Below are positions 2,907 through 31,333 of a stretch of DNA of 38,395 bases, piece by piece; the first letter of the stretch is position 1, and each line of letters opens with the position of its first letter. Source of the DNA: an uncultured Thermoplasmata archaeon. GTDB lineage: Archaea; Thermoplasmatota; Thermoplasmata; Halarchaeoplasmatales; Halarchaeoplasmataceae. Made by a program: the position numbers and the translations under genes. The stretch is taken from contig CAYNQI010000010.1 of the NCBI GenBank assembly GCA_964399335.1, forward strand, positions 1 to 38,395, given 5' to 3'. The notes under the pieces were generated by a model. That model worked only from the letters and a program-made list of their open reading frames with translations. It searched no databases and was not told the origin of the DNA.

Positions 2907-3062
2907 CTATCTTTCAGAATTATTTTCTAGGTCTTCTTCTAGAATTAGAACCCCTACGTAATCACATTTTCGACAGTGATACTTGTACCCGGTCATCATA
3001 CCTGCTACAGATACGATGTCAGTACTTCCACATTTAGGACATCTTTTTATTTTTTTATCGAT
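2907..3062 (-). CDS. Small CPxCG zinc-ribbon protein (51 aa), apparent ATC start
   Basis: Manual translation (I/M)DKKIKRCPKCGSTDIVSVAGMMTGYKYHCRKCDYVGVLILEEDLENNSER*. Two CxxC pairs. GAGAGG lies 6 nt upstream of ATC. No in-frame ATG/GTG/TTG between the upstream stop and the first CxxC. Confidence 0.75.
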   Translation of the reverse strand: MDKKIKRCPKCGSTDIVSVAGMMTGYKYHCRKCDYVGVLILEEDLENNSER

Positions 3063-3082
3063 AGTTATCCTCTCTATTTTGA

Positions 3083-3298
3083 AGTTGTCCCCTGGCTGTA
3101 ACAGTAAGGTTCATCGTAGGGGACCCCCATCTCCCCTTCCTGACTCTAGCCAGGGGTTTGTCCGGTCCTGGGGTTGATCCTTGTTCATAGGAGGACGTCA
3201 CGTCCTAACCTCACGAGGGGACCCATCAGGACCATGTCCTGCATTTGCATCTCGGTTCATAGTCCTGGGAAACTCGCCGGGACCTTCTATGCAGGACA
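3083..3298 (-). ncRNA. Three-hairpin box H/ACA pseudouridylation guide RNA
   Basis: GC-rich island in an AT-rich intergenic region. On the minus strand there are three consecutive hairpins (CCUGCAU/AUGCAGG, UGGUCCUG/CAGGACCG, CCCCUGGCU/AGCCAGGGG), each followed by ACA (3235-3237, 3159-3161, 3086-3088). Each has an internal pocket and a GA...(U/G)AUGA K-turn-type motif. Confidence 0.85.
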
Positions 3299-3344
3299 TA
3301 TAAAATAAGGCCTTGCTGATATATCAATCCATCGGAATTGAAAC

Positions 3345-3360
3345 AAAAAGTATATATAAA
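3345..3360 (+). promoter_or_regulatory. Putative BRE/TATA of the Usp-like gene
   Basis: AAAAAGTATATATAAA about 55 nt upstream of ATG 3414. SD-like GGAGG just before the start. Confidence 0.5.
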
Positions 3361-3413: not shown

Positions 3414-3893
3414 ATGCCTAAAGGTCAATATAGTGATGAAAAGATTCTATTGATCGCAAGCTATAGGGAAGAGTACGACAAAAATGCCCTAAGGAAAATA
3501 AAGGAATATATTTTTAAGATTAAACCTGACCGTATAGTAATTTCTAAAATAATCGAAGAAGATTCCACACCTGAATTAGTTGACGCAGCAGTCGGAATGG
3601 AGAAAAAAAAAGATTTTCTAGAAACTGTTAGAGAAGAAAAAAAGAATCAGGCCGATGAGTATGCAGAAAGATTGATCAAGATGGTGGAATCTACGGGGAT
3701 TCCAACCGAAGTCCGATTAAGGAACACTGAAGAGATCTCTGATGAAATCATAGGAGATTATAAGAAAATAGGTGTGGATTACGTGATCATCCACAGTACT
3801 AATAAAGGCCCTATATCAAAAGCCTTACAGGGTTCAACTGCTAAAAAAGTAAAGGAAGAACTACCGGATAAGTCTGTTTTACCTGTAGATTAA
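3414..3893 (+). CDS. Universal stress protein (UspA-like)
   Basis: Usp-like C-terminus DYVIIHSTNKGPISKALQGSTAKKV...SVLPV; 159 aa. Confidence 0.7.
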   Translation: MPKGQYSDEKILLIASYREEYDKNALRKIKEYIFKIKPDRIVISKIIEEDSTPELVDAAVGMEKKKDFLETVREEKKNQADEYAERLIKMVESTGIPTEVRLRNTEEISDEIIGDYKKIGVDYVIIHSTNKGPISKALQGSTAKKVKEELPDKSVLPVD

Positions 3894-3953: not shown

Positions 3954-5768
3954 ATGTCTATCGTAAGATTGGGTAAAATTCATCTTCATTGGTGTGAAAA
4001 TTGCAATCTACCTTTAGTTGAAAAAGGGACTTGTGGGATCTGTTCTTCCGAAGGTGTAAAAGTTAAAATCACACCACCTGGTGATGTAAGGCCAGCCTTC
4101 GACTTAGATAAAGAACTTATCAAGAAAACTATCAACCGTCAATGGGGTCAAATATATTTCCAGAGGGTATTTGGTGAAAAAGAAATAATCCTCCTTAATA
4201 ATTCCCCGCATATAGATAGAATGGACGAAGTGATAATTGATGGAAACGTGATAGGGAATCTAAGGTATAATATCTATAAAAGAGCCGAAGGAAAAGAACC
4301 TTATGAATTTATAATAAGACCATGGAAGGAATTACCAAAACCGAAAAAAGGTTTCGTGGTTGTTGATGATGGGGCTGTTAAACCTATCTTAAATGGTGCT
4401 AGTATTTTAGCTCCTGGAATAATTGATGTAGATGAGAATATCCATAGAGATGACGAGGTATTGATAATTGATAAAAAAGGAAATGTTATCGCTGCAGGAT
4501 CAGCTCAGATGGATGCAAAAGAGATGATAAAATCAACTTATGGAAAGGCAGTTAAAAATCGATGGAGGGTTTCAGATTTCAATGTTAAAAGTACATGCAA
4601 TGAATGGGCTCAAGCCCTTGAAGCAAATGAACATTTGATCGGAAAAAGGGTTGATACAGCCATCGATTTTATAAGAAAAAAAGTTGAAGAGAAAGAGTTA
4701 CCGATTGCAGTTGCTTACAGTGGCGGAAAGGATTCTTTAGCTACATTACACCTTGTTATGGATGCAGATATAAAACCAGATATGTTGTTTATCGATACAG
4801 GTATCGAATTACCTGAAACCATAGAGAATGTAAAAAAGATAGCTGAAAAATACGATCTTAATCTTGTATCGAAAAAGGCTAGAAGTGGTTATTGGGATAA
4901 CGTTGATTATTTCGGTCCTTCTTCTAAGGATTATCGCTGGTGCTGTAAGACTTGTAAACTTGGCCCAACAGCACTTTTGATTGATCAGAAATATTCAGAT
5001 GGTGTACTTTCATTCATTGGCCAACGAAGATATGAGTCTGAGCAGAGGAAAGATAAAGGAAGTACATGGAATAATCCATGGGTTCCAGGTCAAAAATCTG
5101 CTTCCCCTATCCAGGATTGGACGGCCTTACACATATGGTTGTACTTATTTATGAGGGATGCAGATTACAATCCACTGTATGAAAAGGGATTCGAAAGGAT
5201 CGGCTGCTGGGTTTGTCCTGCCTCTGATATTGAGGAACTTGAAAGATTAAAGAAAAGATTTGAAGGTTATGAAAACTTTGAGGATATATTAGAAAACTAT
5301 AGAATAAAAGCCAATCTACCTAAAATATGGACAAGTTTAGCTCTTTGGCGTTGGAATGAGATACCTAAAGAAATGAAAACATTCTTAGATCAAGATGAGG
5401 ACTTAACTAGAATCGATATAGAGAAGTCCAAACCATCGTTATCGGACATGATTAGCGATGATAGAACTAGGAACCTTCTCAATATATTGATACCAGATGA
5501 CAAGATCTTATCCGATAGCAATATAAGTACTGAAAAAATCCAGGGATTTTTAAAGAGATATGATTTGGACTATCATGACATATACGAGGTATATCTAAAA
5601 GCAATGTTTTGCTCCGAATGTGGAATATGTGTAGCTAGATGCCCCAACGATGCTATAAAATTTAATGATGGCATTATCATAAATAGTGAAGAATGTGATA
5701 GCTGTAAAATCTGTCTAGGTAAATGTCCAGTAGTAGAATTTGATGATAGAGTTATCCTCTCAGATTAG
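3954..5768 (+). CDS. PAPS-reductase-family protein with N-terminal Zn finger, PUA domain and C-terminal 2[4Fe-4S] ferredoxin
   Basis: WCENC...CGIC; PUA VVVDDGAVKPILNGASILAPGI; PP-loop SGGKDS; WCCKTCK and RIGCWVCP; CSECGICVARCP and CDSCKICLGKCP. Confidence 0.9.
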   Translation: MSIVRLGKIHLHWCENCNLPLVEKGTCGICSSEGVKVKITPPGDVRPAFDLDKELIKKTINRQWGQIYFQRVFGEKEIILLNNSPHIDRMDEVIIDGNVIGNLRYNIYKRAEGKEPYEFIIRPWKELPKPKKGFVVVDDGAVKPILNGASILAPGIIDVDENIHRDDEVLIIDKKGNVIAAGSAQMDAKEMIKSTYGKAVKNRWRVSDFNVKSTCNEWAQALEANEHLIGKRVDTAIDFIRKKVEEKELPIAVAYSGGKDSLATLHLVMDADIKPDMLFIDTGIELPETIENVKKIAEKYDLNLVSKKARSGYWDNVDYFGPSSKDYRWCCKTCKLGPTALLIDQKYSDGVLSFIGQRRYESEQRKDKGSTWNNPWVPGQKSASPIQDWTALHIWLYLFMRDADYNPLYEKGFERIGCWVCPASDIEELERLKKRFEGYENFEDILENYRIKANLPKIWTSLALWRWNEIPKEMKTFLDQDEDLTRIDIEKSKPSLSDMISDDRTRNLLNILIPDDKILSDSNISTEKIQGFLKRYDLDYHDIYEVYLKAMFCSECGICVARCPNDAIKFNDGIIINSEECDSCKICLGKCPVVEFDDRVILSD

Positions 5769-31154: not shown

Positions 31155-31273
31155 AAATGGGCTCTGCCGGAGAGTTTATTTCCATCGGAAATCAACGAGA
31201 GAGAGGAATTCATTCCTCTTGGTTTTCGAATCCGGATAAGCACATGAGTAGATACGAAATGGGCTCAGCCGGA
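31155..31273. repeat. 17-bp direct repeat of the tRNA-Val 3' end (att-like)
   Basis: AAATGGGCTCTGCCGGA (31155-31171) vs AAATGGGCTCAGCCGGA (31257-31273), 16/17 identical. Confidence 0.6.
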
Positions 31274-31333
31274 TTCGAACCGGCGACCTCCGCCATGTCA
31301 AGGCGACGTCATAACCAACTAGACTATGAGCCC
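31260..31333 (-). tRNA. tRNA-Val(GAC)
   Basis: GGGCTCATAGTCTAGTTGGTTATGACGTCGCCTTGACATGGCGGAGGTCGCCGGTTCGAATCCGGCTGAGCCCA: full cloverleaf, anticodon GAC, no encoded CCA. Confidence 0.97.

What the first reader, a model, noticed from the sequence alone, without database searches (positions are those of the whole stretch)
3083..3298. Hidden triple-hairpin box H/ACA guide RNA between pan and usp
A GC-rich ~215-nt island resolves on the minus strand into three tandem units. Unit 1: lower stem CCUGCAU/AUGCAGG+ACA, upper stem UCCCGG/CCGAGA, K-turn C-GA / UAU-GA-A with GUUU/GGAC C-stem. Unit 2: UGGUCCUG/CAGGACCG+G+ACA, upper CCUCG/CAAGG, K-turn U-GA / UAU-GA-A with an extended AGGACG/CGUCCU apex. 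Unit 3: CCCCUGGCU/AGCCAGGGG+ACA, upper AAGG/CCUU, G-GA / GAU-GA-A. All three ACA boxes occur only on the minus strand, and a TATA-like TTGATATAT lies about 20-30 nt upstream. Pocket + L7Ae K-turn + ACA is the archaeal Cbf5 guide architecture. Multi-hairpin guides are known in Archaeoglobus and Thermococcales but are usually missed by annotation. I am not aware of one described for this kind of lineage.
Basis: partly seen in the sequence, partly recalled or inferred. Interest (0 to 1): 0.8.

Follow-up and report, generated by a model that had tools for sequence, protein, structure and literature searches.

The report
Three-hairpin H/ACA pseudouridylation guide RNA
The GC-rich gap between the proteasome-ATPase gene and a stress-protein-like gene encodes a real but ordinary archaeal guide RNA, a Thermoplasmata copy of the known HgcG/Pab40 RNA. 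It most likely shows the enzyme Cbf5 which uridines of the large ribosomal RNA to convert to pseudouridine.

Summary
On the minus strand, window 3295-3086 tiles without gaps into three units of lower stem, pocket, upper stem, K-turn and ACA. A TATA/BRE-like promoter lies about 30 nt upstream.

It is not a new kind of RNA. A permissive Rfam scan aligns it end to end to RF00064 (HgcG/Pab40/Pf7) at 59.8 bits, E 1e-15. That is below the family's cut-off of 77 bits, so the standard scan misses it.

- **Lineage:** a Thermoplasmata MAG whose nearest named relatives are Ca. Saliniplasma and Ca. Natronoplasma.
- **Structure:** 39 of 44 base pairs covary across 42 distinct relatives, while the pocket bases are invariant.
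- **Distribution:** a lineage-tuned model finds one copy in 127 of 151 Thermoplasmata genomes.
- **Partners:** the genome encodes Cbf5, Nop10, Gar1 and L7Ae.

Predicted 23S targets, in E. coli numbering:
- **Hairpin 3:** U1915 in helix 69, supported by guide-target covariation.
- **Hairpin 1:** the position-2496 equivalent.
- **Hairpin 2:** the A loop (U2554/2555), with U2586 as a weaker alternative.

Hairpins 1 and 3 match the sites shown experimentally for Pab40.

One oddity: hairpin 1 has no conserved ANA box in this class.

This scan has already found the same RNA family in other archaeal genomes (Asgard lineages, Marine Group II).

Verdict: correct call, new member of a known kind, modest interest.

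The parts
3328..3335 (-). BRE-like purine-rich element (CCGAUGGA) directly upstream of the TATA box
   Evidence: Located. A similar purine-rich stretch sits at the same position in most relatives of the family.
3320..3327 (-). TATA-like box (TTGATATA). It predicts a transcript start at about 3295-3299, at the foot of hairpin 1.
   Evidence: In one search a TTGATATA/TTAAAATA/TTAATATA-type box lies at a fixed distance, about 30 nt before the first stem base, in nearly all relatives. RNA-seq of P. abyssi places the Pab40 5' end at the first base of the H/ACA motif (PMC4652768).
3235..3295 (-). Hairpin 1. Lower stem 3289-3295/3238-3244; pocket AGAAG (3284-3288) and GCAA (3245-3248); upper stem 3277-3283/3249-3255; K-turn C-GA (3274-3276) and UAU-GA-A (3256-3261); apical stem-loop 3262-3273; ACA 3235-3237.
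   Evidence: Lower and upper stems covary: all 13 pairs changed on both sides. The pocket fits 23S CUUGC[UA]CUUCG, the E. coli 2496 equivalent.
3159..3234 (-). Hairpin 2. Lower stem 3227-3234/3163-3170; pocket AUGGGUCC (3219-3226) and AUCAACCC (3171-3178); upper stem 3214-3218/3179-3183; K-turn U-GA (3211-3213) and UAU-GA-A (3184-3189); extended apical stem 3190-3210; G+ACA 3159-3162.
   Evidence: Covariation. The pocket core GGU and CAACCC is invariant in 18 relatives, and the flanking G, CC and final C are at least 90% conserved. It pairs with the A loop of 23S, 6+7 bp.
3086..3156 (-). Hairpin 3. Lower stem 3148-3156/3089-3097; pocket AGAGUCA (3141-3147) and UGUUAC (3098-3103); upper stem GGAAGG/CCUUAC (3135-3140/3104-3109, with one G.A); K-turn G-GA (3132-3134) and GAU-GA-A (3110-3115); apical stem-loop 3116-3131; terminal ACA 3086-3088.
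   Evidence: The lower stem covaries (7 of 9 pairs). The pocket pairs 5+7 bp around helix 69 U1915. Guide and target covary between clades.
2907..3062 (-). Small CxxC...CxxC zinc-ribbon ORF directly downstream. It is a neighbour that may be co-transcribed; it is not part of the RNA.
   Evidence: tblastn finds it directly downstream of the RNA in the relatives of the family. There is no oligo-T tract between the last ACA and the ORF.

Best explanation
Window 3295-3086 (minus strand) is the gene of a box H/ACA guide sRNA of about 210 nt. It is the Thermoplasmata ortholog of HgcG/Pab40/Pf7/Afu-4 (Rfam RF00064).

**Inferred mechanism.** The RNA is transcribed from its own TATA/BRE promoter. Each of its three hairpins is expected to bind L7Ae at the K-turn and a Cbf5-Nop10-Gar1 module at the pocket and lower stem. 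The two single-stranded sides of each pocket pair with 23S rRNA on either side of one uridine, which Cbf5 isomerises to pseudouridine.

**Predicted targets (E. coli numbering).**
- Hairpin 3: U1915 in the helix 69 loop.
- Hairpin 1: the U at the position-2496 equivalent, at the 3' end of helix 89 near the peptidyl-transferase centre.
- Hairpin 2: the A loop of helix 92 (U2555 or U2554), with U2586 as a weaker second or alternative site.

**Shown here:** the anatomy, homology, covariation, invariant pockets, guide-target complementarity and the presence of the protein partners.

**Inferred, not shown:** transcription, RNP assembly and the actual modifications.
For: **Homology.** RF00064 aligns over positions 1-276 of 276 at 59.8 bits, E 1e-15. 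The next best hit is another H/ACA family, Pab19.

**Structure.** The elements tile without gaps. Covariation is 35 of 41 pairs and 39 of 44 pairs, beyond all 500 shuffles and all slid controls. The 3'-strand UGA of each K-turn, the ACA boxes of hairpins 2 and 3, and the pocket cores are invariant or at least 90% conserved.

**Promoter.** It sits at a fixed distance in the relatives.

**Distribution.** There is one copy per genome in 127 of 151 Thermoplasmata genomes, and in 17 of 17 members of the window's own family. Position between pan and the zinc-ribbon gene is conserved in 25 of 26 family loci.

**Partners in the same genome.** Cbf5 348 bits, Nop10 80 bits, Gar1 35.5 bits and L7Ae 93.7 bits, all above their curated cut-offs.

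**Targets.**
- Numbering was fixed by alignment to E. coli K-12 rrlH.
- Hairpin 3 / helix 69 is the top-scoring site. It covaries: the own family has guide GAGUCA with target UGACUC, and other families have GGGUCA with UGACCC.
- The hairpin 1 and hairpin 3 sites equal the sites assigned to Pab40 motifs 1 and 3, positions 2588 and 2016 in P. abyssi. Both were modified in vitro; 2588 was also detected in cellular rRNA, while 2016 was hidden by an RT pause (PMC2377435).
- Hairpin 2: in 40 of 44 genomes the pocket pairs better with the A loop than with the 2586 site (mean 11.3 against 8.0 bp). Seven genomes have C at 2586 yet keep the pocket.
Against: - **No expression or modification data.** The organism is an uncultured MAG, and its own 23S rRNA is not in the assembly. 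Targets were therefore read on a same-genus 23S.
- **Weak single-genome statistics.** With shuffled pockets, hairpin 2 is reached in 30 of 300 trials and hairpin 3 in 12 of 300. The hairpin 1 site is only second best and is not significant alone. The target assignments therefore lean on orthology and conservation.
- **Hairpin 1 geometry.** Its ACA lies 11 nt from the pocket rather than the usual 14-16 nt, and most relatives have no ANA box there at all.
- **Hairpin 2 pairing.** In this genus the A-loop pairing leaves three target bases unpaired instead of two. In one family (G037, G220) a guide variant fits U2586 much better, 13 bp.
- **Rfam score.** It is below the curated family cut-off.
Confidence: 0.92

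Rival explanations
1. It is a structured 5' leader or cis-regulatory element of the downstream zinc-ribbon mRNA rather than a trans-acting guide RNA.
For: The zinc-ribbon ORF starts about 25 nt after the last ACA. No oligo-T terminator lies between them. The pair is syntenic across the family.
Against: Relatives at class level keep the RNA but have no zinc-ribbon gene nearby: no tblastn hits in L002-L006, L008, L015, L016, L020, L023 or L025. A leader would not need three K-turns, ACA boxes and invariant pockets complementary to 23S rRNA, nor would it match RF00064 end to end. Co-transcription followed by processing is compatible with the guide reading.
Confidence: 0.03
2. It is a decaying relic of an H/ACA RNA that is no longer functional, wholly or at least in hairpin 1.
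For: In this genome the upper stems of hairpins 1 and 2 each carry a C.A mismatch. The hairpin 1 ACA is at a non-canonical distance and is not conserved. Some genera of the family have reduced hairpin 1 to a short stem.
Against: Stems covary and pockets are invariant within the family, which indicates purifying selection on all three hairpins. The promoter is conserved. All four RNP proteins are intact. The model score of this copy is the highest of all (223 bits).
Confidence: 0.04
3. It is a GC-rich structured element of another class (SRP RNA, RNase P RNA, a C/D sRNA or a mobile-element end), or a short coding region.
For: The GC-rich island in an AT-rich genome folds well on both strands. 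Small open frames of up to 52 codons overlap it.
Against: No other Rfam family reaches E < 0.1. The genome holds a single copy. The substitution pattern is base-pair covariation, not codon-like. ACA boxes, K-turns and rRNA-complementary pockets are specific to H/ACA guides.
Confidence: 0.01

Closest known systems
HgcG / Pab40 / Pf7 / Pho40 / Afu-4: the three-motif box H/ACA sRNA of Methanocaldococcus, Thermococcales and Archaeoglobus (Rfam RF00064; PMC2377435, PMC4652768)
   Same: - Three tandem hairpin-pocket-K-turn units in the same order, aligning over the full model.
- Motif 1 and motif 3 pockets are related in sequence (GAAGG/UGCAA against GAGG/UGCGA; UGUUAC is identical).
- They point to the same 23S sites as the sites assigned to Pab40: P. 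abyssi 2588, the E. coli 2496 equivalent by a fixed offset inferred from the paper's other sites, and 2016 in helix 69.
- The motif 2 A-loop site corresponds, by that offset, to the site first proposed for Afu-4 (P. abyssi 2647). The 2586 alternative is the site Muller et al. predicted for Pf7/Afu-4 (P. abyssi 2678).
- It has its own promoter, with the transcript starting at the first stem.
   Different: - It scores below the family's gathering cut-off (59.8 against 77 bits).
- The spacer and ACA between hairpins 1 and 2 are deleted in the Rfam alignment.
- Most Thermoplasmata copies have no ANA box after hairpin 1.
- In this family, hairpin 1 has a full K-turn with an extra apical stem instead of a K-loop.
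- The host is a mesophilic-looking, low-GC Thermoplasmata lineage from saline or soda environments.
Eukaryotic box H/ACA snoRNAs (yeast snR34 and snR10 are named from my own knowledge)
   Same: The same pocket-guide principle with Cbf5/dyskerin, Nop10 and Gar1. Muller et al. state that P. abyssi 2016 and 2588 are highly conserved pseudouridylation sites in eukaryal large rRNAs. From memory, not tested here, the yeast equivalents are psi2865 and, for the A loop, psi2923.
   Different: Eukaryotic guides have two hairpins with H and ACA boxes, no K-turn, and Nhp2 in place of L7Ae. No sequence homology was tested.
H/ACA-like guides of Pyrobaculum that lack the lower stem and ACA box (discussed in PMC4652768)
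   Same: Hairpin 1 of most Thermoplasmata copies also lacks a recognisable ANA box, yet keeps the pocket, upper stem and K-turn under selection.
   Different: Here the lower stem is retained and covaries. The hairpin is embedded in a canonical multi-hairpin H/ACA RNA instead of standing alone.

Membership tests
Archaeal box H/ACA guide sRNA (class) | Hairpin with a lower stem, a two-sided internal loop (the pseudouridylation pocket) and an upper stem | tested here: met
   Three such units tile 3295-3086. Lower and upper stems are supported by covariation in 39 of 44 pairs.
Archaeal box H/ACA guide sRNA (class) | K-turn or K-loop (the L7Ae site) about 5-7 bp above the pocket | tested here: met
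   There is a GA on the 5' strand and N-A/G-U-GA on the 3' strand, 5-7 bp above each pocket. The 3'-strand UGA is invariant in all three hairpins in 18 relatives; the 5'-strand GA is invariant in hairpin 2 and nearly so in hairpin 3. The motif was recognised from sequence only; L7Ae binding was not tested.
Archaeal box H/ACA guide sRNA (class) | ACA/ANA box directly 3' of the lower stem, about 14-16 nt from the top of the pocket | tested here: inconclusive
   Hairpins 2 and 3 meet it, with ACA 15-16 nt and 14 nt from the first paired guide base; these boxes are invariant or nearly invariant in relatives. Hairpin 1 has an ACA in this genome, but only 11 nt from the pocket, and most relatives have no ANA there.
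Archaeal box H/ACA guide sRNA (class) | Pocket strands complementary to rRNA on both sides of an unpaired U-N | tested here: met
   - Hairpin 3: GUAAC[UA]UGACUCU, 5+7 bp.
- Hairpin 2: GGGGUUG[UUC]GCCCAU, 7+6 bp, or GGGUU[UA]GACC, 5+4 bp.
- Hairpin 1: UUGC[UA]CUUC, 4+4 bp.

These were read on a same-genus 23S. On its own this is only weakly significant. It is strengthened by guide-target covariation.
Archaeal box H/ACA guide sRNA (class) | Cbf5, Nop10, Gar1 and L7Ae encoded by the organism | tested here: met
   All four were found above their curated cut-offs in the same assembly.
Archaeal box H/ACA guide sRNA (class) | Expressed as a stable small RNA that directs pseudouridine formation | not testable with these tools
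   No transcriptome or modification data exist for this uncultured organism.
Rfam RF00064 (HgcG/Pab40) | Score at or above the curated gathering cut-off of 77 bits | tested here: not met
   The score is 59.8 bits. Only 1 of 40 relatives and 1 of 151 genomes of the phylum reach the cut-off.
Rfam RF00064 (HgcG/Pab40) | Homology: a significant full-length alignment with the three motifs in the same order | tested here: met
   E 1e-15 over model positions 1-276. At E <= 0.001 and <= 1e-5 the same search matches none of the 14 control genomes, even though Methanocaldococcus jannaschii is one of them, so this control shows no false hits but also did not recover a known carrier. At E <= 1 it gives sub-cut-off matches in 4 controls.
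Rfam RF00064 (HgcG/Pab40) | Same rRNA targets as the characterised members | tested here: met
   The hairpin 1 and hairpin 3 sites correspond to Pab40 motif 1 (2588) and motif 3 (2016). The two hairpin 2 candidates are the two sites proposed for Afu-4/Pf7 motif 2. The correspondence of P. abyssi to E. coli numbering is inferred from a constant offset of about 92, cross-checked on several sites; it is not an alignment to P. abyssi rRNA.

The most novel reading that the evidence does not exclude
The Thermoplasmata version may work in a partly non-canonical way.

- **Hairpin 1** may guide pseudouridylation at the 2496-equivalent without an ANA box of its own, for instance by stacking on hairpin 2 or by borrowing its Cbf5 anchoring.
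- **Hairpin 2** may be a dual-site pocket that serves the A loop (U2554/2555) in most lineages. It would be shared with, or retargeted to, U2586 in others, such as family f15, where the A loop itself has changed.
Probability: 0.3. Interest if true: 0.45.

Novelty: new member of a known kind. Interest (0 to 1): 0.3.

Why it matters
- **Annotation.** It adds a real, unannotated RNA gene to this genome. The HgcG/Pab40 guide is near-universal and single-copy in Thermoplasmata, yet standard Rfam annotation almost never calls it: 1 of 151 genomes reaches the cut-off. A lineage-tuned model would fix this.
- **Testable predictions.** It predicts three pseudouridines at functionally central 23S sites (helix 69, the 3' end of helix 89, and the A loop or U2586) in an uncultured group.
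- **Questions for specialists.** Can an internal hairpin work without an ANA box? How does one pocket shift between the A loop and U2586 as the rRNA changes?
- **What it does not change.** None of this alters the known picture of archaeal RNA-guided pseudouridylation.

Tried and rejected
- **Rfam at gathering thresholds** finds only a tRNA in the window. The permissive scan was needed.
- **Plus-strand reading.** It folds as well but has no ACA or K-turn logic, and it would turn the many G-U pairs into A.C.
- **Protein-coding reading.** Only short frames are present.
- **First target scans.** Contiguous pairing with free boundaries missed the hairpin 1 site. It was found by comparing the Pab40 consensus pocket and reading the 23S directly.
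- **Shuffled-pocket test**. Base-pair counts alone are only weakly significant, so I do not present the targets as statistically proven.
- **E. coli numbering.** The first attempt used a strain whose rrl copy is shifted by 4-6 nt. It was redone on K-12 rrlH.
- **A loop versus 2586.** The first automated comparison was mis-anchored, because the guide strings included upper-stem bases. It was discarded and redone from alignment columns.
- **Own 23S rRNA.** It is not in the assembly, so a same-genus 23S was used.
- **Literature.** Searches for H/ACA RNAs in Thermoplasma or Thermoplasmata in the held library found nothing relevant. This is not proof that none exists.
- **Other H/ACA guides.** I did not search this genome for them.

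Full report
**1. What is in the sequence**

Window 3101-3300 has 55.5% G+C in a region that otherwise sits at about 35%. It lies between a proteasome-activating AAA ATPase gene (1683-2891, +; AAA, OB and lid domains) and an ORF with only a weak Usp match (3414-3893, +; 19.8 bits, below the cut-off).

There are three units, each made of lower stem, 5' pocket strand, upper stem, GA, apical stem-loop, NAUGA-A, upper stem, 3' pocket strand, lower stem and ACA.

In this genome the upper stems of hairpins 1 and 2 each have one C.A mismatch. Same-genus relatives have perfect stems.

Both strands fold better than shuffles (z -3.1 and -4.0), so folding energy does not choose the strand. The ACA boxes, the GA/UGA K-turn signatures and the many G-U pairs do.

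**2. Identity**

The standard Rfam scan reports nothing here. The permissive scan aligns 3081-3350 (-) to RF00064, HgcG RNA (Pab40), over all 276 model positions at 59.8 bits, E 1e-15. The gathering score is 77 (same result on the whole genome, one copy).

The first 56 model positions fall on the promoter region, not on the RNA. This agrees with the P. abyssi RNA-seq result that Pab40 starts at the first base of the H/ACA motif (PMC4652768).

Pab40/Pf7/Pho40/Afu-4 are the known three-motif archaeal H/ACA sRNAs (PMC2377435).

**3. Lineage and distribution**

The neighbouring PAN protein finds its closest relatives (69-89% identity) in MAGs titled Thermoplasmata or Thermoplasmatota, Candidatus Saliniplasma and Candidatus Natronoplasma; one record in this set is titled Candidatus Aenigmatarchaeota. 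Many come from soda-lake or saline sediments. The window's assembly is a 1.57-Mb MAG, 80% complete.

- RF00064 gives sub-threshold hits in 26 of 40 relatives (1 above cut-off) and in 43 of 151 genomes of the phylum (1 above cut-off).
- A covariance model built from 18 of these sequences (R1) finds exactly one copy in 127 of 151 genomes of the class.
- That includes 17 of 17 in the window's family and 0 of 12 in one family of complete genomes (f17).
- This tally includes one genome flagged as unpublished (G244). No claim here rests on it, and I fetched no sequence from it.

In 25 of 26 family-level PAN loci the RNA sits in the same place, just downstream of pan and convergent with it, followed by a small zinc-ribbon ORF.

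**4. Evidence for the structure**

For the stems alone:

| Measure | 18 sequences | 42 distinct sequences |
|---|---|---|
| Cells paired | 92.5% | 93.8% |
| Pairs changed on both sides | 35 of 41 | 39 of 44 |
| Shuffles reaching the observed values | 0 of 500 | 0 of 500 |
| Pairing when partners are slid | 34-49% | 34-51% |

The 42-sequence alignment was fitted to the model, so it leans towards the structure. The MAFFT result is independent of that.

The invariant or at least 90% conserved columns are exactly the pocket cores, the 3'-strand UGA of each K-turn, and the ACA boxes of hairpins 2 and 3. Stems that vary by compensation around pockets that never vary are the expected signature of a guide RNA.

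The hairpin 3 upper stem is the weakest helix (75% paired) and probably contains non-canonical pairs.

**5. Promoter**

TTGATATA (3327-3320), preceded by CCGAUGGA, lies about 30 nt before the first stem base. An A/T box of the same type lies at the same distance in nearly all relatives examined. By the usual archaeal spacing (established knowledge: TATA centred near -26), this predicts a start at about 3295-3299.

There is no oligo-T tract after the last ACA. Read-through into the zinc-ribbon ORF, followed by trimming, is therefore possible.

**6. Protein partners**

The same assembly encodes all four partners above their curated cut-offs:
- Cbf5: TIGR00425, 348 bits against a cut-off of 238
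- Nop10: 80 bits
- Gar1: 35.5 bits against 29.3
- L7Ae: 93.7 bits

**7. Targets**

The MAG has a 16S gene but no 23S, so I used the 23S of a same-genus genome. Positions were converted by alignment to E. coli K-12 rrlH.

*Hairpin 3.* It pairs with GUAAC[UA]UGACUCU, which places the target at U1915 in the helix 69 loop. This is the best site in both scans. The ACA lies 14 nt from the first paired guide base.

The assignment is supported by guide-target covariation. All nine family members for which the helix 69 stretch was recovered have UGACUC in helix 69, and all family guides read GAGUCA. The other families checked have UGACCC and GGGUCA. This is probably one evolutionary event, so it is supportive rather than statistical.

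*Hairpin 1.* Its small pocket (AGAAG / GCAA; GCAAG in most relatives) fits CUUGC[UA]CUUCG. The target U aligns with E. coli C2496. In this genome that is only 4+4 bp and the second-best site, not significant alone.

It is, however, the site assigned to Pab40 motif 1 and detected in P. abyssi rRNA (P. abyssi 2588), just as helix 69 is the site of motif 3 (2016, modified in vitro). The conversion from P. abyssi to E. coli numbers is my inference. It uses a constant offset of about 92 that also maps 2549, 2672 and 2678 onto known sites.

*Hairpin 2.* It has two candidate sites.
- **A loop of helix 92.** The pairing is GGGGUUG[UUC]GCCCAU, 7+6 bp, and it is the top score. In this genus three target bases stay unpaired. 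In the many relatives whose 3' strand reads ACAACCCC, the pairing is canonical around U2555 with 13-16 bp.
- **U2586.** The pairing is GGGUU[UA]GACC, 5+4 bp with canonical geometry. This is the site another first-stage note proposed and the one Muller et al. predicted for Pf7/Afu-4.

I compared guide and rRNA in 44 genomes of the class.
- The A loop pairs better in 40 of them (mean 11.3 against 8.0 bp).
- Seven genomes have C at 2586 yet keep a homologous pocket, and one of these (G202) keeps it unchanged.
- Five more have CAAC instead of GACC after 2586 and also keep the pocket cores unchanged.
- Conversely, the two genomes of family f15 have a changed A loop and a guide variant (GGGU to GGUU) that gives 13 bp at U2586.

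The A loop is therefore the better-supported conserved target. U2586 remains possible as a second site here and seems to be the main site in at least one lineage. A tolerated extra unpaired base next to U-N has a precedent in Pab19.

**8. An irregularity**

The hairpin 1 ACA (3237-3235) is followed at once by the hairpin 2 stem and is only 11 nt from the pocket. In the Rfam alignment the usual spacer with its ACA is deleted.

Across the class, the junction between hairpins 1 and 2 is mostly 1-3 nt with no ANA box, whereas hairpins 2 and 3 nearly always keep theirs. Hairpin 1 is nevertheless under selection, since its stems covary and its pocket is conserved. Several genera of the family have reduced it to a short stem. 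Whether hairpin 1 works without its own box is open.

**9. Comparison and verdict**

This is a member of the archaeal box H/ACA guide class and a diverged ortholog of RF00064. It fails only that family's score cut-off.

No description of it for Thermoplasmata turned up in the held literature. Earlier reports of this scan reached the same identification in Asgard lineages and in Marine Group II, which belongs to the same phylum.

The finding is a correct call of an ordinary, though unannotated, RNA gene.

Noticed in passing
window 2907-3062 (-): A zinc-ribbon ORF of about 51 aa (CPKC...CRKC) lies directly downstream of the RNA and keeps that position across the family. At the codon where relatives have TTG or ATG, preceded by a GAGG-like motif, this genome has AGG. 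The start is therefore non-canonical, mutated, or a sequencing error. Pfam gives only weak Zn_ribbon_8 and DUF7838 matches, below cut-off.
   Followed up: partly
loci L024, L037-L039, L042, L048-L051 (relatives, including Ca. Natronoplasma): Two-hairpin variants of the same RNA. Hairpin 1 is reduced to a short stem-loop (for example ACCCGG-ACUU-CCGGGU), and the model match to hairpin 1 is lost. In the one genome of that genus whose 23S could be checked (G023, which keeps its own hairpin 1), the U at the 2496-equivalent is still there.
   Followed up: partly
class-level genomes of family f17: No homolog of the RNA was found in 12 of 12 genomes of one family, most of them complete or nearly so. 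Their 23S domain V segment is also the most divergent, 77-79% identical.
   Followed up: no
L060:3946-3985 (23S rRNA of same-genus genome G001): The motif CCAGGGAUAAC occurs twice, 24 nt apart, just before the peptidyl-transferase centre sequence. This may be a small duplication or insertion in the 23S, or an assembly artefact.
   Followed up: no
window 3954-5768 (+): A 604-aa protein combines a PUA domain, a PAPS-reductase domain and a C-terminal 4Fe-4S ferredoxin motif. Its PUA domain produces the secondary weak hit to the Cbf5 model.
   Followed up: no
The name is tentative.
   Followed up: no
window 31260-31333 (-): A tRNA gene (68.8 bits) is the only Rfam match in the window at gathering thresholds.
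   Followed up: no
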